This document shows positions 29,865 to 38,745 of a DNA stretch of 64,000 nucleotides, piece by piece. The notes under the pieces were generated by a model. The model saw nothing but the letters and a program-made list of their open reading frames with translations. It was not told where the DNA came from and searched no databases. Source of the stretch: Escherichia phage vB_EcoM-LTH01. Made by a program: the position numbers and the translations under genes. The stretch lies in the sequence record PP430345. The stretch is one strand, 5' to 3'. How positions within the stretch are numbered: position 1 is the first letter of the stretch; each line of letters opens with the position of its first letter.

Positions 29865-30025
29865 CTAGAAATGGTAGTTCAGCATACGAGAAGGGCCGAG
29901 CAGCCGGATTCAAGTTTGGGATGTTCAAGAGAAACAACCCGTATGATCCAAACACCATGCCGGAGCAATTTCAAGATTGGGAATCAGGATTTACAAAAGG
30001 GTATCAAGAAAAGGGGTGGTTATGA
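29861..30025 (+). CDS. hypothetical small protein
   Basis: ATGA overlap; SD GAGGGGAAAGAG; track start 29831. Confidence 0.4.
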   Translation: MTRNGSSAYEKGRAAGFKFGMFKRNNPYDPNTMPEQFQDWESGFTKGYQEKGWL

Positions 30026-30066
30026 GTGGATATGTGGGGATGGAAATAATAGGAGAAGAGAGAGTA

Positions 30067-31317
30067 ATGAAAGTTTACTTGGTAGGTGGCGCAGTTCGTG
30101 ATGAACTGATGAGTGTTGAAAGTAAGGATCGGGACTATGTAGTCGTCGGCGCGACCCATGAAGAAATGATTGAAAAGGGATTTACTAAGGTTGGTGCAGC
30201 TTTCCCTGTGTACCTTGAACCAAACACAAAAGAAGAGTACGCTCTTGCTCGAACGGAAAGATCAACAGGTCCTGGTTATCACGACTTCGAGGTTGTGTTC
30301 TCTCCCGACGTTACAATTGAACAAGACCTGATGCGAAGAGATTTGACCATTAATGCTATTGCCAAGGATCTTTCTACGGGTGAAATTATTGACCCTTGCG
30401 GTGGTGTACTCGATATTGAACTTCGTCGGTTACGTTGTGTATCCACTAAAGCATTTATCGAAGACCCTTTACGTGTATACCGATTAGCCAGATTACATGC
30501 CAGATACGGCGGCGAGTTTACAATTGATCCTGAGACTTGGGGAATGTGCAAGGATGTTGATTTAAGTGCATTGCCAAAAGAGCGTAAATTTGCAGAGATT
30601 AAGAAATGCTTTAGTGATCAGTCAGAAATGAATAAACCTTCGGTAATGATCCGTATGTTGACTCAACTGGGAGAATTTCCTGAGCTTGTGGATTTATACG
30701 ATGTTGTTCAACCCAAGGAGCACCACCCTGAAGGTGATGCATTTGTTCACACTTTACTTTGCATGGATTATGCCCAAGCGACTCGTGCAAGTGAAGCTGT
30801 GAAGTGGGCAGTTCTGTGTCACGACTTAGGGAAATGCATTTATTGGTTAACAGGTAAATTGCACGGGCATGAAGAACATGGTATCAAGTTGACTGAACAA
30901 GTTTGCGATCGCTTTGGTGTTCCTAACAATTGGAAGAAGTTAGCTTTAGCTGTAACTGAGCACCATACACGACTTCACCGTATCAAAGAGATGAAGCCAA
31001 AGAAAGTTTACGACTTGTTGGTAGCCTTACGTGGTGAAAAGGACCAGGCATTCCTTTCTGAGTTTATTGACGCTTGCATCTGTGATGCTCGTGGTCGTGG
31101 CCCTGAAAAAATGTTTGACAACTACACCCAGCCTTTGGTATTATTCTCAGCACTGGCGGGGATTGTTCAAAACAGCGTTGCAATCTCAAAAGAAAGTAAA
31201 GAGATTTCTGAAAGATTTGCTGGACGTCCAGAAGAGATCAAGAATAGAATCCGAAATGTAAAAGTAAGGTACGTTACACAATACATCGATAAGATGAAGG
31301 AGAGTGAAAATGGTTGA
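30067..31317 (+). CDS. cca: CCA-adding tRNA nucleotidyltransferase with HD domain
   Basis: MKVYLVGGAVRDELM head motif; HD motif LCHDLGK; ~416 aa like bacterial Cca; track start 29977 is an upstream extension. Confidence 0.85.
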   Translation: MKVYLVGGAVRDELMSVESKDRDYVVVGATHEEMIEKGFTKVGAAFPVYLEPNTKEEYALARTERSTGPGYHDFEVVFSPDVTIEQDLMRRDLTINAIAKDLSTGEIIDPCGGVLDIELRRLRCVSTKAFIEDPLRVYRLARLHARYGGEFTIDPETWGMCKDVDLSALPKERKFAEIKKCFSDQSEMNKPSVMIRMLTQLGEFPELVDLYDVVQPKEHHPEGDAFVHTLLCMDYAQATRASEAVKWAVLCHDLGKCIYWLTGKLHGHEEHGIKLTEQVCDRFGVPNNWKKLALAVTEHHTRLHRIKEMKPKKVYDLLVALRGEKDQAFLSEFIDACICDARGRGPEKMFDNYTQPLVLFSALAGIVQNSVAISKESKEISERFAGRPEEIKNRIRNVKVRYVTQYIDKMKESENG

Positions 31318-31633: not shown

Positions 31634-31950
31634 CAAGTTTATTAACGTATATTTTATGTTGCATTATAAGTTCTGCCGCTTGGTTCTTGTTAATCAAGCT
31701 TCGCCAGGGTGGGTTTCGTATCCCTTTGCCAGAAAACAGTAACTTACTCGACCCTTTAAATCACGGAAATGTTAATTATAAACTCCTGATGCTAGGTTGG
31801 TTAATAATGACTGTATTCTGGTTTGTAGGGTGGCCTTTCTTGATTTTGTTTTATGCTCTTGCGTGGATTGTTTATTCAACTATGGTTGTTTATAATCTAA
31901 CGATTGGTAATGAAAAGTTTGCAAAACGAATTTTTGGAGGTAAGAATTGA
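31630..31950 (+). CDS. small membrane protein (paralog 2 of tandem pair)
   Basis: WFLLIKLRQGGFRIPLP motif shared with upstream gene. Confidence 0.5.
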   Translation: MTSLLTYILCCIISSAAWFLLIKLRQGGFRIPLPENSNLLDPLNHGNVNYKLLMLGWLIMTVFWFVGWPFLILFYALAWIVYSTMVVYNLTIGNEKFAKRIFGGKN

Positions 31951-32402
31951 AAACTCGGATGTACGTATTGGTAAACAGCTACATGATGGGAATCCAAGCA
32001 GGTATCCAAGCAGCACATGCAGCAGCAAACCTTGTAGGTCATTATGGCTTTGCCTATGCCGATCGATATGATGACAGATACAACCTTGTAGATCAGTGGC
32101 AAAGCAAAGACCAAACAATGATCTTGTTGAACGGAGGCTATCAATCGAAGATGCTTAATTTTGCAGAAGGATTTTTAGCTCCAAACATAGAGAAGATTCC
32201 TTACGCATTTTTCTGCGAGGAGAATGATTCTTTGAATGGTGCACTTACGGCTATTGCTTTTATTCTTCCTCAACATATGTGGGATGTTAAGTTAGTTGAT
32301 GGTCGTTGTCCTCTTTTCTCTGATACAATCGATCATAAGTATACGCAAAAAGAAATGGACTTTATCGAAGCATTTAAATCTTTCAAGCTTAAGCAGGGGT
32401 AA
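31947..32402 (+). CDS. hypothetical protein; tentative PTH2-like peptidyl-tRNA hydrolase fold
   Basis: MYVLVNSYMMGIQAGIQAAHAA loosely resembles the PTH2 VVRxDLxMxxGKxAAQxxHAA motif. Confidence 0.45.
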   Translation: MKTRMYVLVNSYMMGIQAGIQAAHAAANLVGHYGFAYADRYDDRYNLVDQWQSKDQTMILLNGGYQSKMLNFAEGFLAPNIEKIPYAFFCEENDSLNGALTAIAFILPQHMWDVKLVDGRCPLFSDTIDHKYTQKEMDFIEAFKSFKLKQG

Positions 32403-33288: not shown

Positions 33289-34416
33289 ATGGAAAATTCA
33301 GTTGTGAGTGCTGGAAAGGTAAAAAGTATCGTAGAGAAGATGGAAAAGCATCCAGACGTAGCAAAGGTCTTGATGTTGAGTCTGGCAGGATCTCATGCGT
33401 ATGGTACGAATAACGAAGGCAGTGATATTGATATTCGTGGGGTTTTTGTTGCAACTCCAAATGTGGTTCGTACCCCATTCAAAGAGGTTACTGAATTAAA
33501 CATCCCTGGTGAAGAGGATGCCAAGATCTACGAGTTGGGAACTTTCCTTCAACTGTTTTCGAAGATGAACCCAAATATCATTGAACTGGGTTTTACTGAT
33601 CCGAAAGCCACATTGTACGAGCACGAAGCTTGGAAAGAGATGAAAGAACATTTCTACTCCTTACTGTCTCGTGAAGTTGCATTTCGCTTCAGTGGTTATG
33701 CAATGTCTCAGTTAAAGCGGATCAAGGGTCACAACAAACACATTAATAATCCGCAACCAAAAGAGCCACCAACTCAATTTGACTATTTCCGTCTGGTGCA
33801 GAGCTATCTCGGAGAAGGTGAGTTGAAGTATGAAGACTTTGTTCGTAAATTTAAAAACATGGAAGGCTTCTGTACTCTGGTTCCTTACGGTGGTAACATT
33901 TACGGTGTTGTAGAAGATCGTAGTGAAGATGTTCAACCAATGTTTAATAAAGATGGTTCTATCCGTAAGCTGGATTATGAAGAAATCCCAGAGGAGGTTA
34001 AAAGAGGTAAGACACTGATGATTGTTAAGTATTGTGCAGACGATCATAAATGGGCCAAGGATAAACATCACAACTACTGGGAGTGGGTTAAGAATCGTAA
34101 CGAGAAGCGTCATGAACTGGAAGAGAAGTTCGGTTACGACACTAAACATGCTATGCATTTGGTCCGGCTTCTTCGGATGGGTGAAGAAATCCTCACAGAA
34201 GGTAAAGTTTTAGTGAATCGACCAGACGCTGAAGAACTCCTCGCAATCCGAAATGGTGAATACCGCTATGAAGAAATTGTTGACTGGGCTGAAGAAAAAG
34301 ATAAAATGATCACAGATGTTCTTTATAAGCAATCGAGCTTACCGAAGAAAACAGATCTGAAGATTGTTGAAAAACTTATTCTGGAGGCACAAGACAAGGT
34401 ATGGAAGGAAACCTAA
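33289..34416 (+). CDS. Pol-beta-superfamily nucleotidyltransferase
   Basis: LSLAGSHAYGTNNEGSDIDIRGVF = GS-x(9)-DxD NTase motif; ~300-aa helical C-terminal region. Confidence 0.6.
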   Translation: MENSVVSAGKVKSIVEKMEKHPDVAKVLMLSLAGSHAYGTNNEGSDIDIRGVFVATPNVVRTPFKEVTELNIPGEEDAKIYELGTFLQLFSKMNPNIIELGFTDPKATLYEHEAWKEMKEHFYSLLSREVAFRFSGYAMSQLKRIKGHNKHINNPQPKEPPTQFDYFRLVQSYLGEGELKYEDFVRKFKNMEGFCTLVPYGGNIYGVVEDRSEDVQPMFNKDGSIRKLDYEEIPEEVKRGKTLMIVKYCADDHKWAKDKHHNYWEWVKNRNEKRHELEEKFGYDTKHAMHLVRLLRMGEEILTEGKVLVNRPDAEELLAIRNGEYRYEEIVDWAEEKDKMITDVLYKQSSLPKKTDLKIVEKLILEAQDKVWKET

Positions 34417-34889
34417 TCTATGAAAAAATAATCACTGCTCTGAACATGGATGTTCAGCGAGAAAGATTTTTCGTTATCCGATGGATTGAGGAAAGATTAG
34501 CAAAAGATCAAGATAACGAAAAAGAATTGATAGAGGAAGTTACTGTAAGACTTACTGAGGAGTTTTCTTACAAGGTAAGCAACGGTATAGTTCAAAACGT
34601 GATTTTGTTTTCCGAGATAGATGACTTCTTCATGGAGAAAGATAAGCCTACGATCGATGAACTTAAACTTCTTGAAGCTTCTATGCCAAAAATGTTCGCT
34701 TGGTTAAGTAGACTCTGTGTTGAAATACAGGAGGCATTTGATCATCCTCACTCTTGCAGTATAGACTATCATCCTCGTGAGGCTGTTTGTAGTGGACAAG
34801 GGTGCGGAAGGATAGGTTTTGTAAACTACAAAGATTCAGAAACCAATTGGCAATTCTTCTGTGGAAGATCTCCACGGTGTTGCCCATAA
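34401..34889 (+). CDS. hypothetical protein with Cys/His-rich C-terminus
   Basis: HPHSCSIDYHPREAVCSGQGCGRIG...FCGRSPRCC. Confidence 0.45.
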   Translation: MEGNLIYEKIITALNMDVQRERFFVIRWIEERLAKDQDNEKELIEEVTVRLTEEFSYKVSNGIVQNVILFSEIDDFFMEKDKPTIDELKLLEASMPKMFAWLSRLCVEIQEAFDHPHSCSIDYHPREAVCSGQGCGRIGFVNYKDSETNWQFFCGRSPRCCP

Positions 34890-34902: not shown

Positions 34903-35406
34903 ATGAAAATTTTAAAATTACTAACGAAACTCCATAACGAAAATAAGGTTATCGAATTTCATACGGAGCAAGAACTCAACTTCTTCGGAAGTTTCAGTAC
35001 AGAGGACAATCTTGTCGAAGGATTTTTTAAATTTAAAAATTTCGATACCCTCTTTGTTGTGGAGTCTTTAGAATACATTGTGTATTTCGAAGGTGTTTGG
35101 CGTTTAGCTGCTGGAAAATTTCGTGTTGTCGGACATGAAGAGATCGAAGAACAAAAACCAGGTTATCATCTGGATACTTTCCCTCGTGGAGAACTTGGAG
35201 AGATCACTAAGATTCAAGAAGAACTTGATGAACTTAAGGATGCAGCCAAACAAAAATGCAAGATCATGGAGTTGGTAGAGCTTTCTGATCTGGTCGGTGC
35301 TATGGAAGCCTACCTGAATAAGCATCATCCAAACACTTCACTGGAAGACCTGATGGTTATGTCAAAAATCACTAAACGTGCATTCCAGAATGGTAAGCGA
35401 GGCTAA
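34903..35406 (+). CDS. hypothetical protein, possible MazG-like helical domain
   Basis: ATG after AAGGGGAGAGGAAAA; ELGEITKIQEELDELKD...ELVELSDLVGAMEAYL. Confidence 0.5.
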   Translation: MKILKLLTKLHNENKVIEFHTEQELNFFGSFSTEDNLVEGFFKFKNFDTLFVVESLEYIVYFEGVWRLAAGKFRVVGHEEIEEQKPGYHLDTFPRGELGEITKIQEELDELKDAAKQKCKIMELVELSDLVGAMEAYLNKHHPNTSLEDLMVMSKITKRAFQNGKRG

Positions 35407-35407
35407 A

Positions 35408-35986
35408 ATGTCAAACATTGACTTCACATTATTTATTGATGCTCATAGTTGGTGGAAATGTAAAGGTTTCAATGATAAGGTTGTCCCAAGCTATGTAGAT
35501 GATGAAGCTATGGACCATACATGCCCCGAAGATGTTACTGATCTTCGCATTGTCCAGAACGGGAAATATGCAGTGGCTTCAGCAGAGCAATCATTCCTTC
35601 AACTCGACAAAGAGGGGAAGTTGGAAGATGGCAGTTGGATGGCTGTGACTCCATGCTTTCGTGATGAGATGGTTCTTGATGATATTCATTTCAATATTTT
35701 CTTAAAGATGGAACTGTTTAGAAGTGCCAGTAGTAAAAAGAATGCAGAGAAGATTTCTCACGAGATCGCAAAAGATGCCATATCGATGTTTACCCTCTTA
35801 GGGATTCCTCGTGACGTACTCTTTTTAGTTAAGACTCCGATCGGTTACGATGTTTATTGTGACGATATGGAGATTGGGTCCTACGGTGCTCGAAAAACAC
35901 TCACTGGTAAATGGTATGCATACGGAACTGGCCTGGCTGAACCAAGGACTTCGATCGCGATTCAAAAATATCGAGGAAATGAATAA
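35408..35986 (+). CDS. hypothetical protein; tentative minimal class-II aminoacyl-tRNA-synthetase-like core
   Basis: VTPCFRDE...HFNIF (motif-2-like fRxE) and YGTGLAEPRTSIA (motif-3-like GxGxxxxR); start moved to ATG after stop overlap. Confidence 0.45.
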   Translation: MSNIDFTLFIDAHSWWKCKGFNDKVVPSYVDDEAMDHTCPEDVTDLRIVQNGKYAVASAEQSFLQLDKEGKLEDGSWMAVTPCFRDEMVLDDIHFNIFLKMELFRSASSKKNAEKISHEIAKDAISMFTLLGIPRDVLFLVKTPIGYDVYCDDMEIGSYGARKTLTGKWYAYGTGLAEPRTSIAIQKYRGNE

Positions 35987-36187
35987 AATTTCACATTAAG
36001 GTATACCCTATGGGTCAGATCTGGTCCATAGGTATTTTCTATGTATTAAAATCGATTTAAGTTATTTAAATACTTTTTTGAAGTCTTGTTGTAAAAATTA
36101 ACAACATAGTGTTCATGACCGATCTTCGCTGTTGTATTTTTTCATAATATGATAAAATGTGTTCAGCTTAGTGGAAGGATGGTCATT

Positions 36188-36652: not shown

Positions 36653-36684
36653 GCCAGTCACCGAAAGGTGGCTGGCTTTTCTTT
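36653..36684 (+). terminator. intrinsic terminator
   Basis: GCCAGTCACCGAAAGGTGGCTGGC + TTTTCTTTT. Confidence 0.7.
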
Positions 36685-36697
36685 TATGGGGGTTTTA

Positions 36698-37219
36698 ATG
36701 AGTAAACGTAACATTGAGAATCATGTTCTGAATGCGTATGGTAAAGGTGCTCGTTGGATTGGTTGGGATCATTGGATCAAGCACCAGCCTTTCTTTAAGG
36801 CGGCAGAAAAGAAAATTGAAGAGTCTGTTGCAGTTGGGAATCGCAAAAGCATCTACGTTTATGCGATATCTGAATCAAATTGGTCAACTCCTGCAATAAC
36901 TTTGTATCTTGATGGAAACACAGGAGAACTGGAATGTGTCAAAATCCTGAGCGTAGATGATGTTTACACGGTATTAAATATCTATCGTGATTCAACTGTA
37001 TTGATTAAAAGAAATGAGGCCCAAGTGGTGTTTGAGGACTTATTTCAAAACCCTACGCATCCGACAGATGAAGAACTCGATCTTTTCACGGCGTTGTATG
37101 GGGATGATGATATTCTTCTTGACTTGAACCCAATGTTCTTCCAGCGTGTTCAACATCTGAACAAAGCTGCTGTAAAGAATGCTATGAAATTTATTGTTGA
37201 CGAGGACATACCATTTTGA
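36698..37219 (+). CDS. hypothetical protein, member of C-terminal ALYPE-motif paralog family
   Basis: C-terminal DEELDLFTALYGDD; ATG after terminator; track GTG start lies inside the hairpin. Confidence 0.5.
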   Translation: MSKRNIENHVLNAYGKGARWIGWDHWIKHQPFFKAAEKKIEESVAVGNRKSIYVYAISESNWSTPAITLYLDGNTGELECVKILSVDDVYTVLNIYRDSTVLIKRNEAQVVFEDLFQNPTHPTDEELDLFTALYGDDDILLDLNPMFFQRVQHLNKAAVKNAMKFIVDEDIPF

Positions 37220-37671
37220 AAACTAAAGAGATAATCGAGAGATTGAGCAGGCAGTGGACTTTTAATGCCCTAGGTAAAAACAGATACCGGAACAATATTT
37301 TTAAGAAGGGTGAAAAATGGACTCAATCCGAAGGAATGTCGGCATCCGTGAGTTTTAGAATCCCACTGGACAAGGCTGACAAAAGGATAAACATAAGTTC
37401 AAACAGGCATCTTTTTCAATGGAGAACATCCAAAGATTCTATTGGGAAACCTGATCGTTTCGTTTTTGTTACTTATGGCGACAAGAGCGGGACAAAACGA
37501 ATAGTCCTTGAAGAGTATTTCTTCGATCCAACAGATATACTTGAAGAGGAGATAGAGATGTTTGAAGCGTTGTTCCCTGAAATTTCAAGGTATATCCTTG
37601 CAATGGGGGAAGCTTTAGATGAGGCAGAGATAAAAATTCAAGAGAGGGTAGAAAATGTCATTGTACGATAA
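37216..37671 (+). CDS. hypothetical protein, ALFPE-motif family member
   Basis: TTG start; C-terminal EEEIEMFEALFPEI. Confidence 0.5.
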   Translation: MKTKEIIERLSRQWTFNALGKNRYRNNIFKKGEKWTQSEGMSASVSFRIPLDKADKRINISSNRHLFQWRTSKDSIGKPDRFVFVTYGDKSGTKRIVLEEYFFDPTDILEEEIEMFEALFPEISRYILAMGEALDEAEIKIQERVENVIVR

Positions 37672-38026
37672 AAATATGAAAGGTTTCTTCAATAATACCG
37701 GAGGGAATACCTTTGTGAAGACAGGTGCATCGCCATTACCTATGACGGGTTTTCCTATTCCAAATCCCCCAACTACGACAATTGATAGGGAGGGAGCAAT
37801 ATCTCAAGGTTTTATGACAAAACGTTTGACGTTGAAATACAAAGGGATTTTGATAGAGGGTGTCTTCAATGAGCAGATTTTGGATTTCTTTGCTGACCCT
37901 ATGAACATAGAGAAAGAAGAGATACTTCTCTTAGAGGCTGCAAATCCAAAGTGGGCAGAGGTCCTCAAGGGGGCTTTTCGACAAGGTTGGTTGAATGAAC
38001 AAGCAGATAAACTTTTTTACGAATAA
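37655..38026 (+). CDS. hypothetical protein, family member (degenerate motif)
   Basis: KEEILLLEAANPKW. Confidence 0.5.
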   Translation: MSLYDKNMKGFFNNTGGNTFVKTGASPLPMTGFPIPNPPTTTIDREGAISQGFMTKRLTLKYKGILIEGVFNEQILDFFADPMNIEKEEILLLEAANPKWAEVLKGAFRQGWLNEQADKLFYE

Positions 38027-38035
38027 GGTGATAAA

Positions 38036-38275
38036 ATGGTTGACGAGAGGAAGCTGAATCTTGTATATTATCTCTTACCGGAGCGGGATAGAGAAGAATA
38101 CTTCACTTCCCAAACCACAGAAGGGAGAGCAGAGGATTGGAAATTCTATGAATCTGTTCATCCCGAAAAGGTAAGAGAGATACTCATGGTTTGTGAGAAA
38201 ATCGATGGTGATCTCGCAAAATCTTTAATCGAATACGTAAAAATAAAAGAAAACTTAACAAAATCAGGAGACTAA
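38036..38275 (+). CDS. hypothetical protein, family member
   Basis: YYLLPERDREEYFTSQ...AEDWKFYESVHPEK. Confidence 0.5.
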   Translation: MVDERKLNLVYYLLPERDREEYFTSQTTEGRAEDWKFYESVHPEKVREILMVCEKIDGDLAKSLIEYVKIKENLTKSGD

Positions 38276-38278
38276 CGA

Positions 38279-38440
38279 ATGAATACCAAATTTTTGAAAC
38301 GTGTAATTGCTATCTGGGCGGGTTCTGTTGTTGTTGGTGCAGCATGTGTTGCAGCAGATCTCAAAATGGTTGAAGCTATCATTGTCGCAGTCCCTGCTGG
38401 GTTCCTTATCGGTACAGCTGCTGCTCGGTACATCAAATGA
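38279..38440 (+). CDS. small membrane protein (53 aa)
   Basis: ATG after GGAG; hydrophobic; ATGA overlap with next gene. Confidence 0.35.
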   Translation: MNTKFLKRVIAIWAGSVVVGAACVAADLKMVEAIIVAVPAGFLIGTAAARYIK

Positions 38441-38745
38441 AAAATGAAACTTGGCGTTATGGTGAATTCGGTTATTACTTTGTTGACAGCATCGAAAGAG
38501 ATCGGTACTTTACATCGGGAGACTCTTACGAAGACCGACTGGAAGATTGGAACCTCTTTGCAGCGTTGTTTCCAGAAAGGGCGAATCAAGTTTACAAGTT
38601 GATCGAAGAGAAAATTCTTCGTGCTGAAGAAGAAATGAAGTACAAGATGATGATTCGTGATTTCTCAGAAAGAAACGAGTCAAGGGCGGCAACCCTTCTT
38701 GAAGTCAGAACTGCACTGGCTAATTTGGAGGAAAATGATGATTAA
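38437..38745 (+). CDS. hypothetical protein, family member
   Basis: YYFVDSIERDRYFTSG...LEDWNLFAALFPER. Confidence 0.5.
   Translation: MKNETWRYGEFGYYFVDSIERDRYFTSGDSYEDRLEDWNLFAALFPERANQVYKLIEEKILRAEEEMKYKMMIRDFSERNESRAATLLEVRTALANLEENDD

What the first reader, a model, noticed from the sequence alone, without database searches (positions are those of the whole stretch)
35408..35986. Minimal class-II aminoacyl-tRNA-synthetase-like core protein
VTPCFRDE...HFNIF and YGTGLAEPRTSIA resemble class II motif 2 and motif 3 in a protein of only ~190 aa, suggesting a stripped-down amino-acid-activating fold (compare AsnA, EpmA/PoxA, HisZ).
Basis: inference. Interest (0 to 1): 0.55.

Follow-up and report, generated by a model that had tools for sequence, protein, structure and literature searches.

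The report
Phage mini seryl-tRNA-synthetase core plus pyrophosphatase partner
The gene really does encode a 192-residue, stripped-down copy of the catalytic core of seryl-tRNA synthetase. It belongs to a large, uncharacterised phage family that almost always sits next to, or is fused with, a small HisE/MazG-type nucleotide pyrophosphatase, so it looks like half of an unstudied two-enzyme module and not a real tRNA synthetase.

Summary

The window comes from a Septuagintavirus-like E. coli phage of the Vequintavirinae. The protein belongs to PHROG 4806. GenBank records label members "histidyl" or "seryl tRNA synthetase" without any experiment.

The new result is a partner gene. The gene just upstream (34903..35406) is separated by one base and ends in an 80-aa HisE/MazG-like domain (PHROG 6408, function unknown) with an invariant EExxE...ExxD motif.
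- It lies close to the core gene (within about 1.3 kb where measured) in 67 of 69 dereplicated lineages.
- It matches the core almost 1:1 across GenBank phages (277 versus 273 records).
- It is fused to the core in at least 15 proteins.

My best reading is that the core activates serine, or a close analogue, and acts together with a nucleotide pyrophosphohydrolase on a nucleotide-type acceptor. The acceptor is unknown. I rate this a new variant of a known kind, interest about 0.6.

The parts
35408..35986 (+). Stand-alone SerRS-type class II catalytic core, 192 aa (PHROG 4806). Motif 1 Pro is P27. The S58-A59-E60 segment aligns with SerRS 'TAE'. Motif 2 is T81-P82-C83-x-R85-x-E87 ... F98-x-K100-x-E102. 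E155-x-x-S158 aligns with SerRS 'E-x-S-S'. Motif 3 is T174-G175-x-A177-E178-P179-R180.
34903..35406 (+). Partner gene, 167 aa from the ATG used in the UPEC06 annotation (the mechanical ORF starts at a GTG at 34861). The C-terminal ~80 aa form a HisE/PRA-PH/MazG-like all-alpha NTP pyrophosphohydrolase domain (PHROG 6408). The N-terminal ~85 aa are a lineage-specific, poorly modelled beta-rich domain.
35146..35403 (+). The HisE/MazG-like domain itself: GYH, K-I-Q-E-E-L-D-E-L-K-D-A (EExxE), E-L-S-D (ExxD), T-K-R-A-F-x-N-G-x-R. These positions are invariant or nearly so in the family.
34401..34889 (+). 162-aa protein (PHROG 12113, function unknown) ending in a Cys-rich zinc-ribbon-like tail, CSGQGC...FFCGRSPRCCP. 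The same tail is fused to the C-terminus of the aaRS-like core in other phages, so it is probably a lineage-specific accessory of the module.
35399..35410 (+). Coupling junction: GAGG Shine-Dalgarno, partner stop TAA (35404-35406), 1 nt, then the ATG of the core gene.
36007..36032 (+). Terminator-like hairpin (11-bp stem) followed by a T-run, 21 nt after the stop codon. The core gene therefore appears to close the transcription unit.
33289..34416 (+). RlaP-type (RNA-ligase-associated Pol-beta) nucleotidyltransferase. It overlaps the next gene by 16 nt and opens the tightly packed four-gene block. This is context, not a universal part of the module (9 of 69 lineages).

Best explanation
SHOWN. 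The ORF encodes a 192-aa stand-alone class II aminoacyl-tRNA-synthetase catalytic core derived from seryl-tRNA synthetase. It is a member of a large phage family (PHROG 4806). It is translationally coupled to, co-inherited with, and in other genomes fused to an ~80-aa HisE/MazG-type nucleotide pyrophosphohydrolase domain (PHROG 6408).

INFERRED FROM CONSERVED RESIDUES. The core binds ATP-Mg2+ and serine, or a very close analogue, and forms the aminoacyl-adenylate. It cannot recognise tRNA-Ser the canonical way, because it has no N-terminal helical arm and its motif-2 loop is six residues shorter and net acidic.

BEST GUESS FOR THE WHOLE MODULE (inference). This is a two-enzyme, nucleotide-directed aminoacyl-transfer system. 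The partner cleaves a nucleoside triphosphate, possibly a modified one, to NMP + PPi. The SerRS-like core transfers the activated amino acid to an adenosine-type acceptor, which would be either a free nucleotide or the 3'-terminal nucleotide of a tRNA or RNA, without tRNA-body recognition. The logic resembles MazZ + PurZ, where a MazG-type enzyme feeds an NMP to an amino-acid-ligating enzyme, but the chemistry would be aaRS chemistry. The module would serve the phage's tRNA and nucleotide maintenance programme.

CONFIDENCE BY LAYER. Identity of the fold and its SerRS ancestry about 0.95. Obligate functional coupling to the HisE/MazG-like partner about 0.9. Amino-acid adenylation activity about 0.7. 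The specific nucleotide-acceptor mechanism about 0.3.

For: Catalytic residues: P27, E60, T81, P82, C83, R85, F98, K100, E102, E155, G175, A177 and R180 are identical in six phage members and E. coli SerRS and invariant in 54 family members. T174 sits six residues before the motif-3 Arg, the position of the Ser-OH-binding Thr380 of T. thermophilus SerRS (my recollection of Belrhali et al. 1994). The alignment is collinear with insertions removed.

Not a canonical SerRS: TIGR00414 scores 20.3 bits against a 301.65 cut-off; the protein starts at motif 1; the motif-2 loop is 14 residues versus 20 and has median charge -3; family median pI is 5.0. The role of the helical arm and the motif-2 loop in tRNA binding is taken from PMC9427863.

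Partner coupling: found close by on the same strand (within about 1.3 kb where the gap was measured) in 82 of 85 loci and in 67 of 69 groups dereplicated at 80% identity; 1-nt gap here; 277 versus 273 GenBank phage records with near-identical host breakdown; fusions P0135, P0148, P0173, P0198, P0199, P0200, P0204, P0226, P0276 and L093-L095, L097-L099.

Partner identity: PF01503 sub-threshold in 4 of 4 members; profile hits to three HisE structures at E 0.17-0.55, collinear from the N-terminal (S/G)Y through EExxE and ExxD; Foldseek top two are HisE, probability 0.97 and 0.95; the acidic motif is invariant.

Context: CCA-adding enzyme, a weak PTH2-like hit and RlaP lie upstream here. tRNA genes or RNA-repair genes lie within 8 kb in 27 of 60 loci. 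In CcrSC the gene sits inside the tRNA array, and in the phi92-like phage PD06 it sits next to a YqeY gene.
Against: No biochemical data exist for any member, and I found no paper on the family. The partner's assignment to HisE/MazG rests on three weak but concordant signals, none individually significant (E 0.005-0.5). The acceptor is not identified by anything computed here. No product such as seryl-NMP has a known role in phage biology. The only universal neighbour is the partner; tRNA and RNA-repair neighbours occur in under half of the lineages and could simply reflect the general early-gene, nucleotide-metabolism region of large phages. The assignment of Ser-binding residues relies on sequence alignment plus remembered T. 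thermophilus numbering, not on a superposition with ligand.
Confidence: 0.4

Rival explanations
1. It is a genuine, extremely reduced seryl-tRNA synthetase, as GenBank and some genome papers assume. It would charge host or phage tRNA-Ser, or tRNA acceptor ends generally, to sustain translation or to protect tRNA 3' ends from host toxins. The partner would play an auxiliary role in nucleotide or pyrophosphate handling.
For: The SerRS-type active site is conserved. The gene is embedded in or near tRNA gene arrays in 16 of 60 loci and in CcrSC. It lies near the CCA-adding enzyme, RlaP, an RNA ligase, PTH2-like and YqeY genes. The literature takes the SerRS annotation at face value (PMC8953757). 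Engineered class II 'urzymes' of similar size can acylate tRNA (my knowledge of Carter-lab work, not checked here).
Against: The N-terminal helical arm that SerRS needs to recognise tRNA-Ser is absent, and the motif-2 loop that enters the acceptor stem is shorter and acidic. The position aligned with the acceptor-binding Arg of the motif-2 loop (R254 in Drosophila SerRS2, PMC10570016) is a conserved His (H94). The family is acidic (pI 5.0). The protein scores 20 bits against a 302-bit cut-off on the serS model. This reading does not explain why a HisE/MazG-like enzyme is obligatory and sometimes fused. In L098 the fused module lies 0.9 kb from a complete canonical SerRS, so there it is not a replacement.
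Confidence: 0.2
2. It is a dinucleoside-polyphosphate (Ap4A/Np4N) module. Without a tRNA acceptor, the SerRS-like core would use seryl-adenylate to adenylylate ATP or other NTPs and make Ap4N alarmones or cap precursors. The HisE/MazG-like domain would hydrolyse them or their NTP precursors, as a synthetase/hydrolase pair that sets alarmone levels during infection.
For: SerRS is a documented Ap4A synthase through the adenylate intermediate (my recollection of Belrhali et al. 1995, not checked here). The core keeps every ATP and adenylate contact but has no tRNA-binding elements. The partner is a nucleotide pyrophosphohydrolase-like domain fused or adjacent to it.
Against: MazG/HisE-type enzymes are not known Ap4A hydrolases. 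Coupling synthesis and hydrolysis in an invariant 1:1 module has no obvious benefit for a lytic phage. Nothing computed here points specifically to Np4N.
Confidence: 0.1
3. It aminoacylates a protein or peptide, in the manner of EpmA or of the SerRS-derived amino acid:[carrier protein] ligases. The core would transfer the activated amino acid to a side chain or thiol of a protein partner, for example the Cys-rich zinc-ribbon protein encoded two genes upstream, or a host factor.
Against: The zinc-ribbon component is restricted to one sub-lineage (5 of 85 loci), whereas the HisE/MazG-like partner is universal. Pfam scans of a few adjacent genes found no carrier-protein (PP-binding) gene near the core. 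This reading gives no role to the pyrophosphohydrolase.
Confidence: 0.08
4. It is a HisZ-like regulatory subunit. The aaRS-like core would not turn over substrate. It would sense an amino acid and ATP, and allosterically control the pyrophosphohydrolase, tying nucleotide hydrolysis to amino-acid supply.
Against: HisZ and other pseudo-aaRSs such as SLIMP lose the catalytic residues (PMC10570016). Here the motif-2 and motif-3 arginines, the Mg2+-binding Glu and the adenine-stacking Phe are invariant in the 54 aligned family members, in a family of more than 1000 clusters.
Confidence: 0.08
5. It is a pre-replicative nucleotide modification pathway for phage DNA, an analogue of MazZ/PurZ or gp56/gp42. 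The partner would convert a dNTP to dNMP and the core would attach an amino acid to the base. The modified nucleotide would then be re-phosphorylated and built into DNA.
For: The enzyme logic is the same as in Z-genome phages, where a MazG-type (d)GTPase acts with an aspartate-ligating PurZ (my knowledge, not checked here). The module often lies among nucleotide-metabolism genes such as RNR, dUTPase, dCMP deaminase and NAMPT.
Against: Vequintavirinae and their relatives, which carry the module, are 'exceptionally susceptible' to six restriction systems (PMC8594841), which argues against genome-wide base replacement. The module spans phage lineages with very different, already explained DNA modifications (T4-like Acinetobacter phages, Campylobacter phages). 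No dedicated kinase or polymerase co-varies with it.
Confidence: 0.06
6. It is an anti-defence binder or degrader of amino-acid-nucleotide immune signals, such as His-ADPR or SAM-AMP-like molecules. The adenylate pocket would capture the conjugate and the pyrophosphohydrolase would cleave it.
For: Class II cores bind aminoacyl-adenylates very tightly. The module is confined to virulent phages and sits in accessory early regions. It is almost absent from cellular genomes: 19 loci among 185,579 species representatives, all but one (a 775-bp contig fragment) in metagenome-assembled genomes.
Against: There is no match to any PADLOC defence-related model and no literature link. Nothing suggests the serine-type pocket fits His or SAM. 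This reading is purely speculative.
Confidence: 0.05

Closest known systems
Seryl-tRNA synthetase (bacterial type), catalytic domain
   Different: It lacks the ~100-residue N-terminal coiled-coil arm and the C-terminal tail. It has five deletions inside the core, including 6 residues of the motif-2 loop. It is 192 aa against 430 aa. It scores 20 bits on the serS equivalog model (cut-off 302). It always has a HisE/MazG-like partner.
Amino acid:[carrier protein] ligases (Bll0957 / Atu2573 type, SerRS-derived)
   Different: Those descend from methanogen-type SerRS, are about 300 aa, use an active-site zinc and sit next to a carrier-protein gene (my knowledge of Mocibob et al. 2010). Here bacterial-type SerRS structures match better, no carrier-protein gene was seen in the few neighbours scanned, and the partner is a pyrophosphohydrolase.
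HisZ + HisE of histidine biosynthesis
   Different: HisZ derives from HisRS, is catalytically dead and works with HisG. Here the core derives from SerRS and keeps its catalytic residues, and no hisG-type neighbour recurred in the neighbour clustering. The resemblance probably explains the 'histidyl tRNA synthetase', 'HisZ' and 'PRA-PH' labels seen in databases.
MazZ + PurZ of Z-genome (2-aminoadenine) phages
   Same: Works-like analogy only. A small phage MazG-family NTP pyrophosphohydrolase is encoded next to an ATP-dependent enzyme that ligates an amino acid to a nucleotide.
   Different: PurZ is an adenylosuccinate-synthetase homologue, not a class II aaRS. The carrier phages here are restriction-sensitive. 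No homology to either protein was tested.
AsnA, EpmA/PoxA/GenX
   Same: Both are stand-alone class II cores that activate an amino acid without charging tRNA.
Engineered class II 'urzymes'
   Same: Similar idea and size range: a minimal class II core retaining motifs 1 and 2 (and 3) that still activates amino acids.
   Different: Those are laboratory truncations. This is a natural, widely conserved protein of 175-205 aa under purifying selection. The comparison is from my own knowledge, not a tool result.

Membership tests
Class II aaRS catalytic-core superfamily | Antiparallel beta-sheet core with motifs 1 (Pro), 2 (fRxE ... F) and 3 (gxgxgf(d/e)R) | tested here: met
Canonical seryl-tRNA synthetase (TIGR00414 / EC 6.1.1.11) | Full-length match above the curated cut-off | tested here: not met
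   20.3 bits against a cut-off of 301.65; only residues 18-147 match.
Canonical seryl-tRNA synthetase (TIGR00414 / EC 6.1.1.11) | N-terminal antiparallel coiled-coil arm (PF02403) that binds the tRNA-Ser variable arm or T-loop | tested here: not met
   The protein begins at the motif-1 helix; alignments start at SerRS residue ~179-186. There is no PF02403 hit. A true SerRS in L098 shows the domain for contrast.
Canonical seryl-tRNA synthetase (TIGR00414 / EC 6.1.1.11) | Residues binding seryl-adenylate (motif-2 Arg/Glu, stacking Phe, Glu of KxE, Mg-binding Glu-x-x-Ser, Thr six residues before the motif-3 Arg, motif-3 Arg) | tested here: met
   R85, F98, E102, E155, S158, T174 and R180 are invariant and E87 nearly invariant, and all align with the SerRS positions. 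The residue roles come from my recollection of T. thermophilus SerRS structures; no ligand superposition was possible.
Canonical seryl-tRNA synthetase (TIGR00414 / EC 6.1.1.11) | Specific serylation of tRNA-Ser | not testable with these tools
   This needs an aminoacylation assay.
PHROG 4806 ('histidyl tRNA synthetase') | Full-length profile match | tested here: met
   E 2.1e-55, residues 2-187 on profile positions 3-186 of 190. The PHROG name is an annotation, not a tested function.
HisZ (ATP-PRT regulatory subunit) | HisRS-derived, catalytically degenerate, partnered with short-form HisG | tested here: not met
   SerRS ranks above HisRS and HisZ. The catalytic residues are retained. No HisG-type neighbour recurred in the 85 loci.
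Amino acid:[carrier protein] ligase | Adjacent phosphopantetheinyl carrier-protein gene; methanogen-type SerRS ancestry with active-site zinc | tested here: inconclusive
AsnA / EpmA (class IIb stand-alone cores) | AspRS/AsnRS/LysRS-type core | tested here: not met
PRA-PH / HisE / MazG all-alpha NTP pyrophosphohydrolases (partner protein) | Profile match above the Pfam gathering score | tested here: inconclusive
   PF01503 scores 13.9-17.5 bits against a cut-off of 21.3 in 4 of 4 members. The PDB profile search gives HisE at E 0.17-0.55. Foldseek ranks HisE first, probability 0.95-0.97 but E 0.5.
PRA-PH / HisE / MazG all-alpha NTP pyrophosphohydrolases (partner protein) | Metal-binding EExxE ... 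ExxD motif on two long helices | tested here: met
   E106, E107, E110, E126 and D129 are invariant in 26 sequences and again in 32 sequences. The three helices are modelled at pLDDT >90.

The most novel reading that the evidence does not exclude
The pair is a tRNA-independent aminoacyl-nucleotide system. This would be the smallest natural class II 'synthetase' (175-205 aa), one that has replaced the tRNA body with a nucleotide handled by a fused or adjacent HisE/MazG-type enzyme. It would make, or destroy, an amino-acid-nucleotide conjugate that large virulent phages use during infection, for example as a tRNA-free aminoacyl donor, an alarmone, or a decoy for conjugate-type immune signals. It would also be a natural counterpart of the laboratory 'urzymes' invoked for the origin of class II synthetases.
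Probability: 0.3. Interest if true: 0.85.

Novelty: new variant of a known kind. Interest (0 to 1): 0.6.

Why it matters
tRNA-free paralogues of aminoacyl-tRNA synthetases (AsnA, EpmA, HisZ, aa:CP ligases) have each revealed unexpected chemistry. This family is smaller than any of them. It is very widespread in large lytic phages, with about 1,200-1,700 clusters at 50% identity, and it occurs in workhorse E. coli phages of the rV5, phi92 and phAPEC8 groups. It is currently mislabelled as a histidyl- or seryl-tRNA synthetase.

Its invariant pairing and fusion with a HisE/MazG-like pyrophosphohydrolase of unknown function turns two database orphans (PHROG 4806 and PHROG 6408) into one testable two-enzyme module. 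Solving it would correct a propagated annotation error. It would define the minimal natural class II active site. It may also uncover a new nucleotide- or tRNA-end-directed reaction in phage infection. If instead it proves to be a plain helper SerRS, the find is modest.

Tried and rejected
- Pfam, NCBIfam and single-sequence PDB searches with the protein alone gave only sub-threshold or spurious hits. A family profile was needed.
- tRNA scan of the window: no tRNA genes.
- BLAST-level clustering of neighbours found no universally conserved neighbour other than the partner; the best others reach 9 of 69 lineages or fewer.
- Accessory domains fused to the partner gave no Pfam hit. These are the N-terminal beta-rich domain here, and a domain with an invariant H-x-H...H pattern in L022, L028, L032, L042, P0267 and P0268. 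A profile of the H-x-H domain found nothing meaningful in PDB sequences. My impression that it resembles the cysteine-dioxygenase cupin motif is therefore unsupported.
- PADLOC: no defence-system model matches the core, the partner or the zinc-ribbon protein.
- Eight literature searches (plus one rejected for a malformed term) found no experimental or comparative study of the family. The jumbo-phage survey PMC7824862 does not mention it. The classic SerRS structure paper PMC450221 is not held, so residue roles rest on memory.
- DNA-hypermodification reading: downgraded because carrier phages are restriction-sensitive.
- 'Cellular gene' reading: rejected. The 'Burkholderia pseudomallei' member P0052 sits in a typical Vequintavirinae-like phage context. 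Only 19 loci, all but one (a 775-bp contig fragment) in MAGs, turned up among 185,579 species genomes.
- The recurrence of tRNA-Cys genes near the module (seven loci) was considered as a clue to the acceptor. Those loci may be related phages and other tRNA-rich loci lack tRNA-Cys, so I left it as an observation.
Full report
**1. The observation**

The ORF list and the raw sequence show an open frame ending at 35986. The biologically sensible start is the ATG at 35408. It is preceded by GAGG (35399-35402) and lies one base after the TAA stop (35404-35406) of the upstream gene. The longer GTG-initiated version (35378) overlaps that gene and has no counterpart in homologues.

A terminator-like hairpin (11-bp stem, 36007-36032) followed by a T-run lies 21 nt after the stop. 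The window itself is 94-96% identical to Escherichia phages A7_1, UPEC06, A5-4, A73 and W70, which are Septuagintavirus-like Vequintavirinae.

**2. Is it a class II core?**

Alone, the sequence gives only sub-threshold database hits: PF00152 at 13 bits, serS TIGR00414 at 20 bits against a cut-off of 302, and nothing meaningful in PDB sequences. PHROGs places it full length in PHROG 4806, 'histidyl tRNA synthetase' (E 2e-55). GenBank phage records call homologues 'putative seryl-tRNA synthetase', 'histidyl tRNA synthetase' or 'hypothetical'.

The family evidence is as follows.
- A 54-member family alignment (A1) has 21 invariant columns, most of them in or next to the motif segments.
- As a profile it hits SerRS structures (Aquifex 2dq3 E 3e-7, then a series of other SerRSs) ahead of AspRS and PylRS.
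- hhalign against E. coli SerRS gives 92% probability.
- AlphaFold2 with this alignment gives pLDDT 94.6 and pTM 0.90.
- Foldseek finds 606 PDB chains at E<=1e-3; the 50 listed are all PylRS or SerRS catalytic domains.

**3. Active site and what is missing**

Adding the E. coli SerRS catalytic domain to the family alignment and a seven-sequence alignment show collinear correspondences.

| Segment | Phage protein | E. coli SerRS |
|---|---|---|
| Motif 1 | VVPSYV (P27) | YVPYLV |
| 'TAE' segment | VASAEQSF | LIPTAEVPL |
| Motif 2, first strand | TPCFRDE | TPCFRSE |
| Motif 2, second strand | FLKME | FDKVE |
| Mg-binding segment | EIGS | EISS |
| Motif 3 | YGTGLAEPR | NGSGLAVGR |

Thirteen of the columns that are identical between the six phage members and E. 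coli SerRS are also invariant across the family: P27, E60, T81, P82, C83, R85, F98, K100, E102, E155, G175, A177 and R180. By my recollection of the T. thermophilus SerRS-adenylate structures (not verifiable here), these include:
- the motif-2 Arg and the adenine-stacking Phe;
- the Glu that binds the serine hydroxyl (E279, aligned with E102);
- the Mg-binding Glu/Ser pair (E345/S348, aligned with E155/S158);
- the Thr six residues before the motif-3 Arg (T380, aligned with T174);
- the motif-3 Arg.

Amino-acid activation, most likely of serine or a near-isostere, is thus the expected first half-reaction.

What is absent is everything SerRS uses for tRNA. The N-terminal helical arm is gone; alignments start at SerRS residue ~180. 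The motif-2 loop is 14 instead of 20 residues and has median net charge -3, against +2 by my count for E. coli. The position that aligns with the acceptor-binding loop arginine is a conserved histidine. The family is acidic, with median pI 5.0. The roles of the arm and the loop are taken from PMC9427863 and PMC10570016.

**4. The family**

An exhaustive profile search finds 1684 clusters at 50% identity with E<=1e-3, and 1178 of them reach E<=1e-30. Of the 150 best, most are 175-205 aa.

Among GenBank phages, 273 records carry it. The hosts include Escherichia, Acinetobacter, Caulobacter, Pectobacterium, Cronobacter, Microcystis, Brevundimonas and Campylobacter. In IMG/VR the carriers are mostly contigs of 100-580 kb.

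Among 185,579 species-representative prokaryotic genomes only 19 loci turn up, all but one (a 775-bp contig fragment) in MAGs. The one 'Burkholderia' member sits in a typical phage context. No solved structure and no paper on the family were found. One genome paper simply states that the homologue 'encodes SerRS' and notes MazG genes two and three genes away (PMC8953757).

**5. The partner: the main new finding**

Clustering all ORFs from 80 viral loci plus the window merged the target with an ~80-aa ORF that lies immediately beside it in 56 of 79 loci. An HMM of that ORF finds it:
- on the same strand, with gaps of up to about 1.3 kb, in 82 of 85 loci;
- in 67 of 69 groups after dereplication at 80% identity;
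- in 17 of the 19 MAG loci.

In GenBank phages it occurs in 277 records with essentially the same host breakdown as the core's 273: Escherichia 112 versus 111, Acinetobacter 59 versus 61, Caulobacter 13 versus 13, and so on.

It is fused to the C-terminus of the core in P0135, P0148, P0173, P0198, P0199, P0200, P0204, P0226 and P0276, and in L093-L095 and L097-L099. In this window it forms the C-terminal 80 residues of the upstream gene (34903..35406), which adds a lineage-specific N-terminal domain.

The domain is PHROG 6408, 'unknown function' (E 2e-42 and 2e-36). Its consensus is GYH..I.KG..G..SKI.EE..E..DA..Q......ELSD..GA.E.Y....DL..M...TKRAF..G.R, and the EExxE and ExxD acidic residues are invariant.

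Three independent but individually weak signals identify it as a HisE/PRA-PH/MazG-type all-alpha NTP pyrophosphohydrolase.
- PF01503 matches at 13.9-17.5 bits in 4 of 4 members.
- Profile hits to three HisE structures and a Sulfolobus MazG protein reach E 0.17-0.55, with collinear alignment from the N-terminal (S/G)Y onwards.
- Foldseek ranks HisE 2a7w and 1yvw first (probability 0.97 and 0.95, 25-30% identity), followed by MazG proteins. The model's three helices have pLDDT >90.

**6. Other context**

Here the module closes a tight block: RlaP nucleotidyltransferase (33289..34416), then a 162-aa protein with a zinc-ribbon-like tail (34401..34889), then the partner, the core and the terminator. 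Further upstream lie a CCA-adding enzyme with an HD domain (29977..31314) and a weak PTH2-like protein (31947..32402).

Counts across dereplicated lineages:

| Neighbour | Lineages (of 69) |
|---|---|
| RlaP nucleotidyltransferase | 9 |
| CCA-adding enzyme | 8 |
| DUF4326 | 7 |
| PTH2-like | 6 |
| NAMPT | 6 |
| T4 Rnl1-like RNA ligase | 5 |

tRNA genes lie within the fetched 8 kb in 16 of 60 loci. A tRNA gene or one of the RNA-repair genes lies there in 27 of 60. In Caulobacter phage CcrSC the gene is inside the tRNA array. In the phi92-like phage PD06 it is followed by a YqeY-domain gene. The zinc-ribbon tail (C..C...CG.SPRCCP) recurs upstream in the Certrevirus-like loci and is fused to the core in P0069 and P0075. 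These associations suggest the tRNA, RNA-repair and nucleotide-metabolism neighbourhood of large phages, but only the partner is universal.

**7. Mechanism**

Shown:
- a SerRS-derived catalytic core;
- an obligate HisE/MazG-like partner.

Inferred from residue conservation:
- the core forms seryl- (or similar) adenylate;
- the partner is an active metal-dependent nucleotide pyrophosphohydrolase.

Inferred from what is missing:
- tRNA-Ser cannot be recognised canonically.

My preferred model (about 0.3 for the specific mechanism) is nucleotide-directed aminoacyl transfer. The natural acceptor of a synthetase is the ribose of a terminal AMP residue. A core that has lost the tRNA body, yet is welded to an enzyme that makes NMPs from (possibly modified) NTPs, is most simply read as acting on a nucleotide-sized acceptor or on exposed RNA 3' ends. 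The enzyme logic parallels MazZ + PurZ of Z-genome phages.

The rivals, in order of my estimate, are:
- a true mini-SerRS (0.2), weakened by the missing arm, the acidic loop, the unexplained partner and its coexistence with a full SerRS in L098;
- an Ap4N synthetase/hydrolase pair (0.1);
- protein or peptide aminoacylation involving the zinc-ribbon protein (0.08);
- a HisZ-like regulatory subunit (0.08), weakened by the intact catalytic residues;
- DNA hypermodification (0.06), weakened by the exceptional restriction sensitivity of Vequintavirinae (PMC8594841);
- an anti-signal sponge or hydrolase (0.05), with no PADLOC or literature support.

**8. Comparison, novelty and verdict**

It works like, and descends from, SerRS, but it fails the membership tests for a canonical SerRS (score, arm). 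It is a member of PHROG 4806. It is not HisZ, AsnA or EpmA. Membership of the aa:CP ligases is inconclusive and unlikely.

The aaRS resemblance is already embedded in public annotation, so that part is not new. What appears unreported is the recognition that this is the smallest natural class II core family, and that it forms an invariant, sometimes fused, module with a HisE/MazG-like enzyme.

I rate it a new variant of a known kind with interest 0.6. The module is well defined, widespread and experimentally tractable, and its chemistry is unknown. It is not yet shown to be anything more exotic than a helper enzyme.

Noticed in passing
window 34401..34889; also L007 7620-7712, L008 7218-7313, L009 7605-7700; proteins P0069, P0075: A Cys-rich, zinc-ribbon-like C-terminal tail (C..C ... 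(F/Y)CG.SPRCCP-stop) ends the PHROG 12113 protein two genes upstream of the core. In other phages the same tail is fused to the C-terminus of the aaRS-like core. It therefore looks like a lineage-specific third component of the module.
   Followed up: partly
L022 6797-7615, L032 7154-7981, L042 7064-8011, L028 7334-8008; proteins P0267, P0268: In several unrelated loci the HisE/MazG-like partner is fused to a ~190-aa domain with invariant FGLGF.Q.K, H-x-H and a distal His. This 3-His pattern reminded me of cysteine-dioxygenase-type cupins. No Pfam or PDB sequence match supports that.
   Followed up: partly
L018, L032, L040, L042, L046, L053, L054: tRNA-Cys(GCA) genes, often duplicated, recur within a few kb of the module in seven loci. 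Two loci also carry suppressor-like tRNAs with a CUA anticodon. This may reflect shared ancestry of those phages and not function.
   Followed up: no
L098 804-2099 and 2983-3798 (Nanoarchaeota-labelled MAG contig JAGQJW010000007.1): A complete canonical SerRS (PF02403 arm + PF00587 core) lies 0.9 kb upstream of a fused core + HisE-like gene. The mini-core is therefore not a replacement for SerRS there. Fused versions are concentrated in MAGs labelled CPR or DPANN, on contigs of up to 905 kb.
   Followed up: partly
window 29977..31314, 31947..32402, 33289..34416: A run of tRNA and RNA-end maintenance genes lies upstream on the same strand: a CCA-adding enzyme with an HD domain, a weak PTH2-like protein (16.6 bits, below threshold) and an RlaP nucleotidyltransferase. 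No tRNA gene occurs anywhere in the 64-kb window.
   Followed up: partly
window 36668..38745 (ORFs 36668-37219, 37216-37671, 37655-38026, 38036-38275, 38437-38745): Downstream of the terminator is an array of small same-strand ORFs. Several share a C-terminal acidic motif of the type '(D/E)..EE...F.A..PE'. In the clustering they fall into multi-copy paralogue families (clusters 11 and 12). Their function is unknown.
   Followed up: no
database labels: PHROG 4806; JGI names; GenBank products: Annotation is inconsistent and probably wrong. The core is called 'histidyl tRNA synthetase' or 'seryl-tRNA synthetase'. The partner is variously 'hypothetical', 'phosphoribosyl-ATP pyrophosphohydrolase', 'HisZ' or even 'endonuclease IV'. 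At least one genome paper repeats the SerRS function as fact (PMC8953757).
   Followed up: yes
Acinetobacter T4-like phages, e.g. L002/L039 (Acj61); AB-Navy1 and AB-Navy71: In Acinetobacter Twarogvirinae the partner is divergent (about 36-40% identity). Judging from matches in two different, related Navy phages, it may lie about 2 kb from the core instead of next to it. In Acj61 my HMM did not detect it within 8 kb. There the core lies near nrdC.10 and nrdC.11, the latter being an RlaP-type nucleotidyltransferase.
   Followed up: partly
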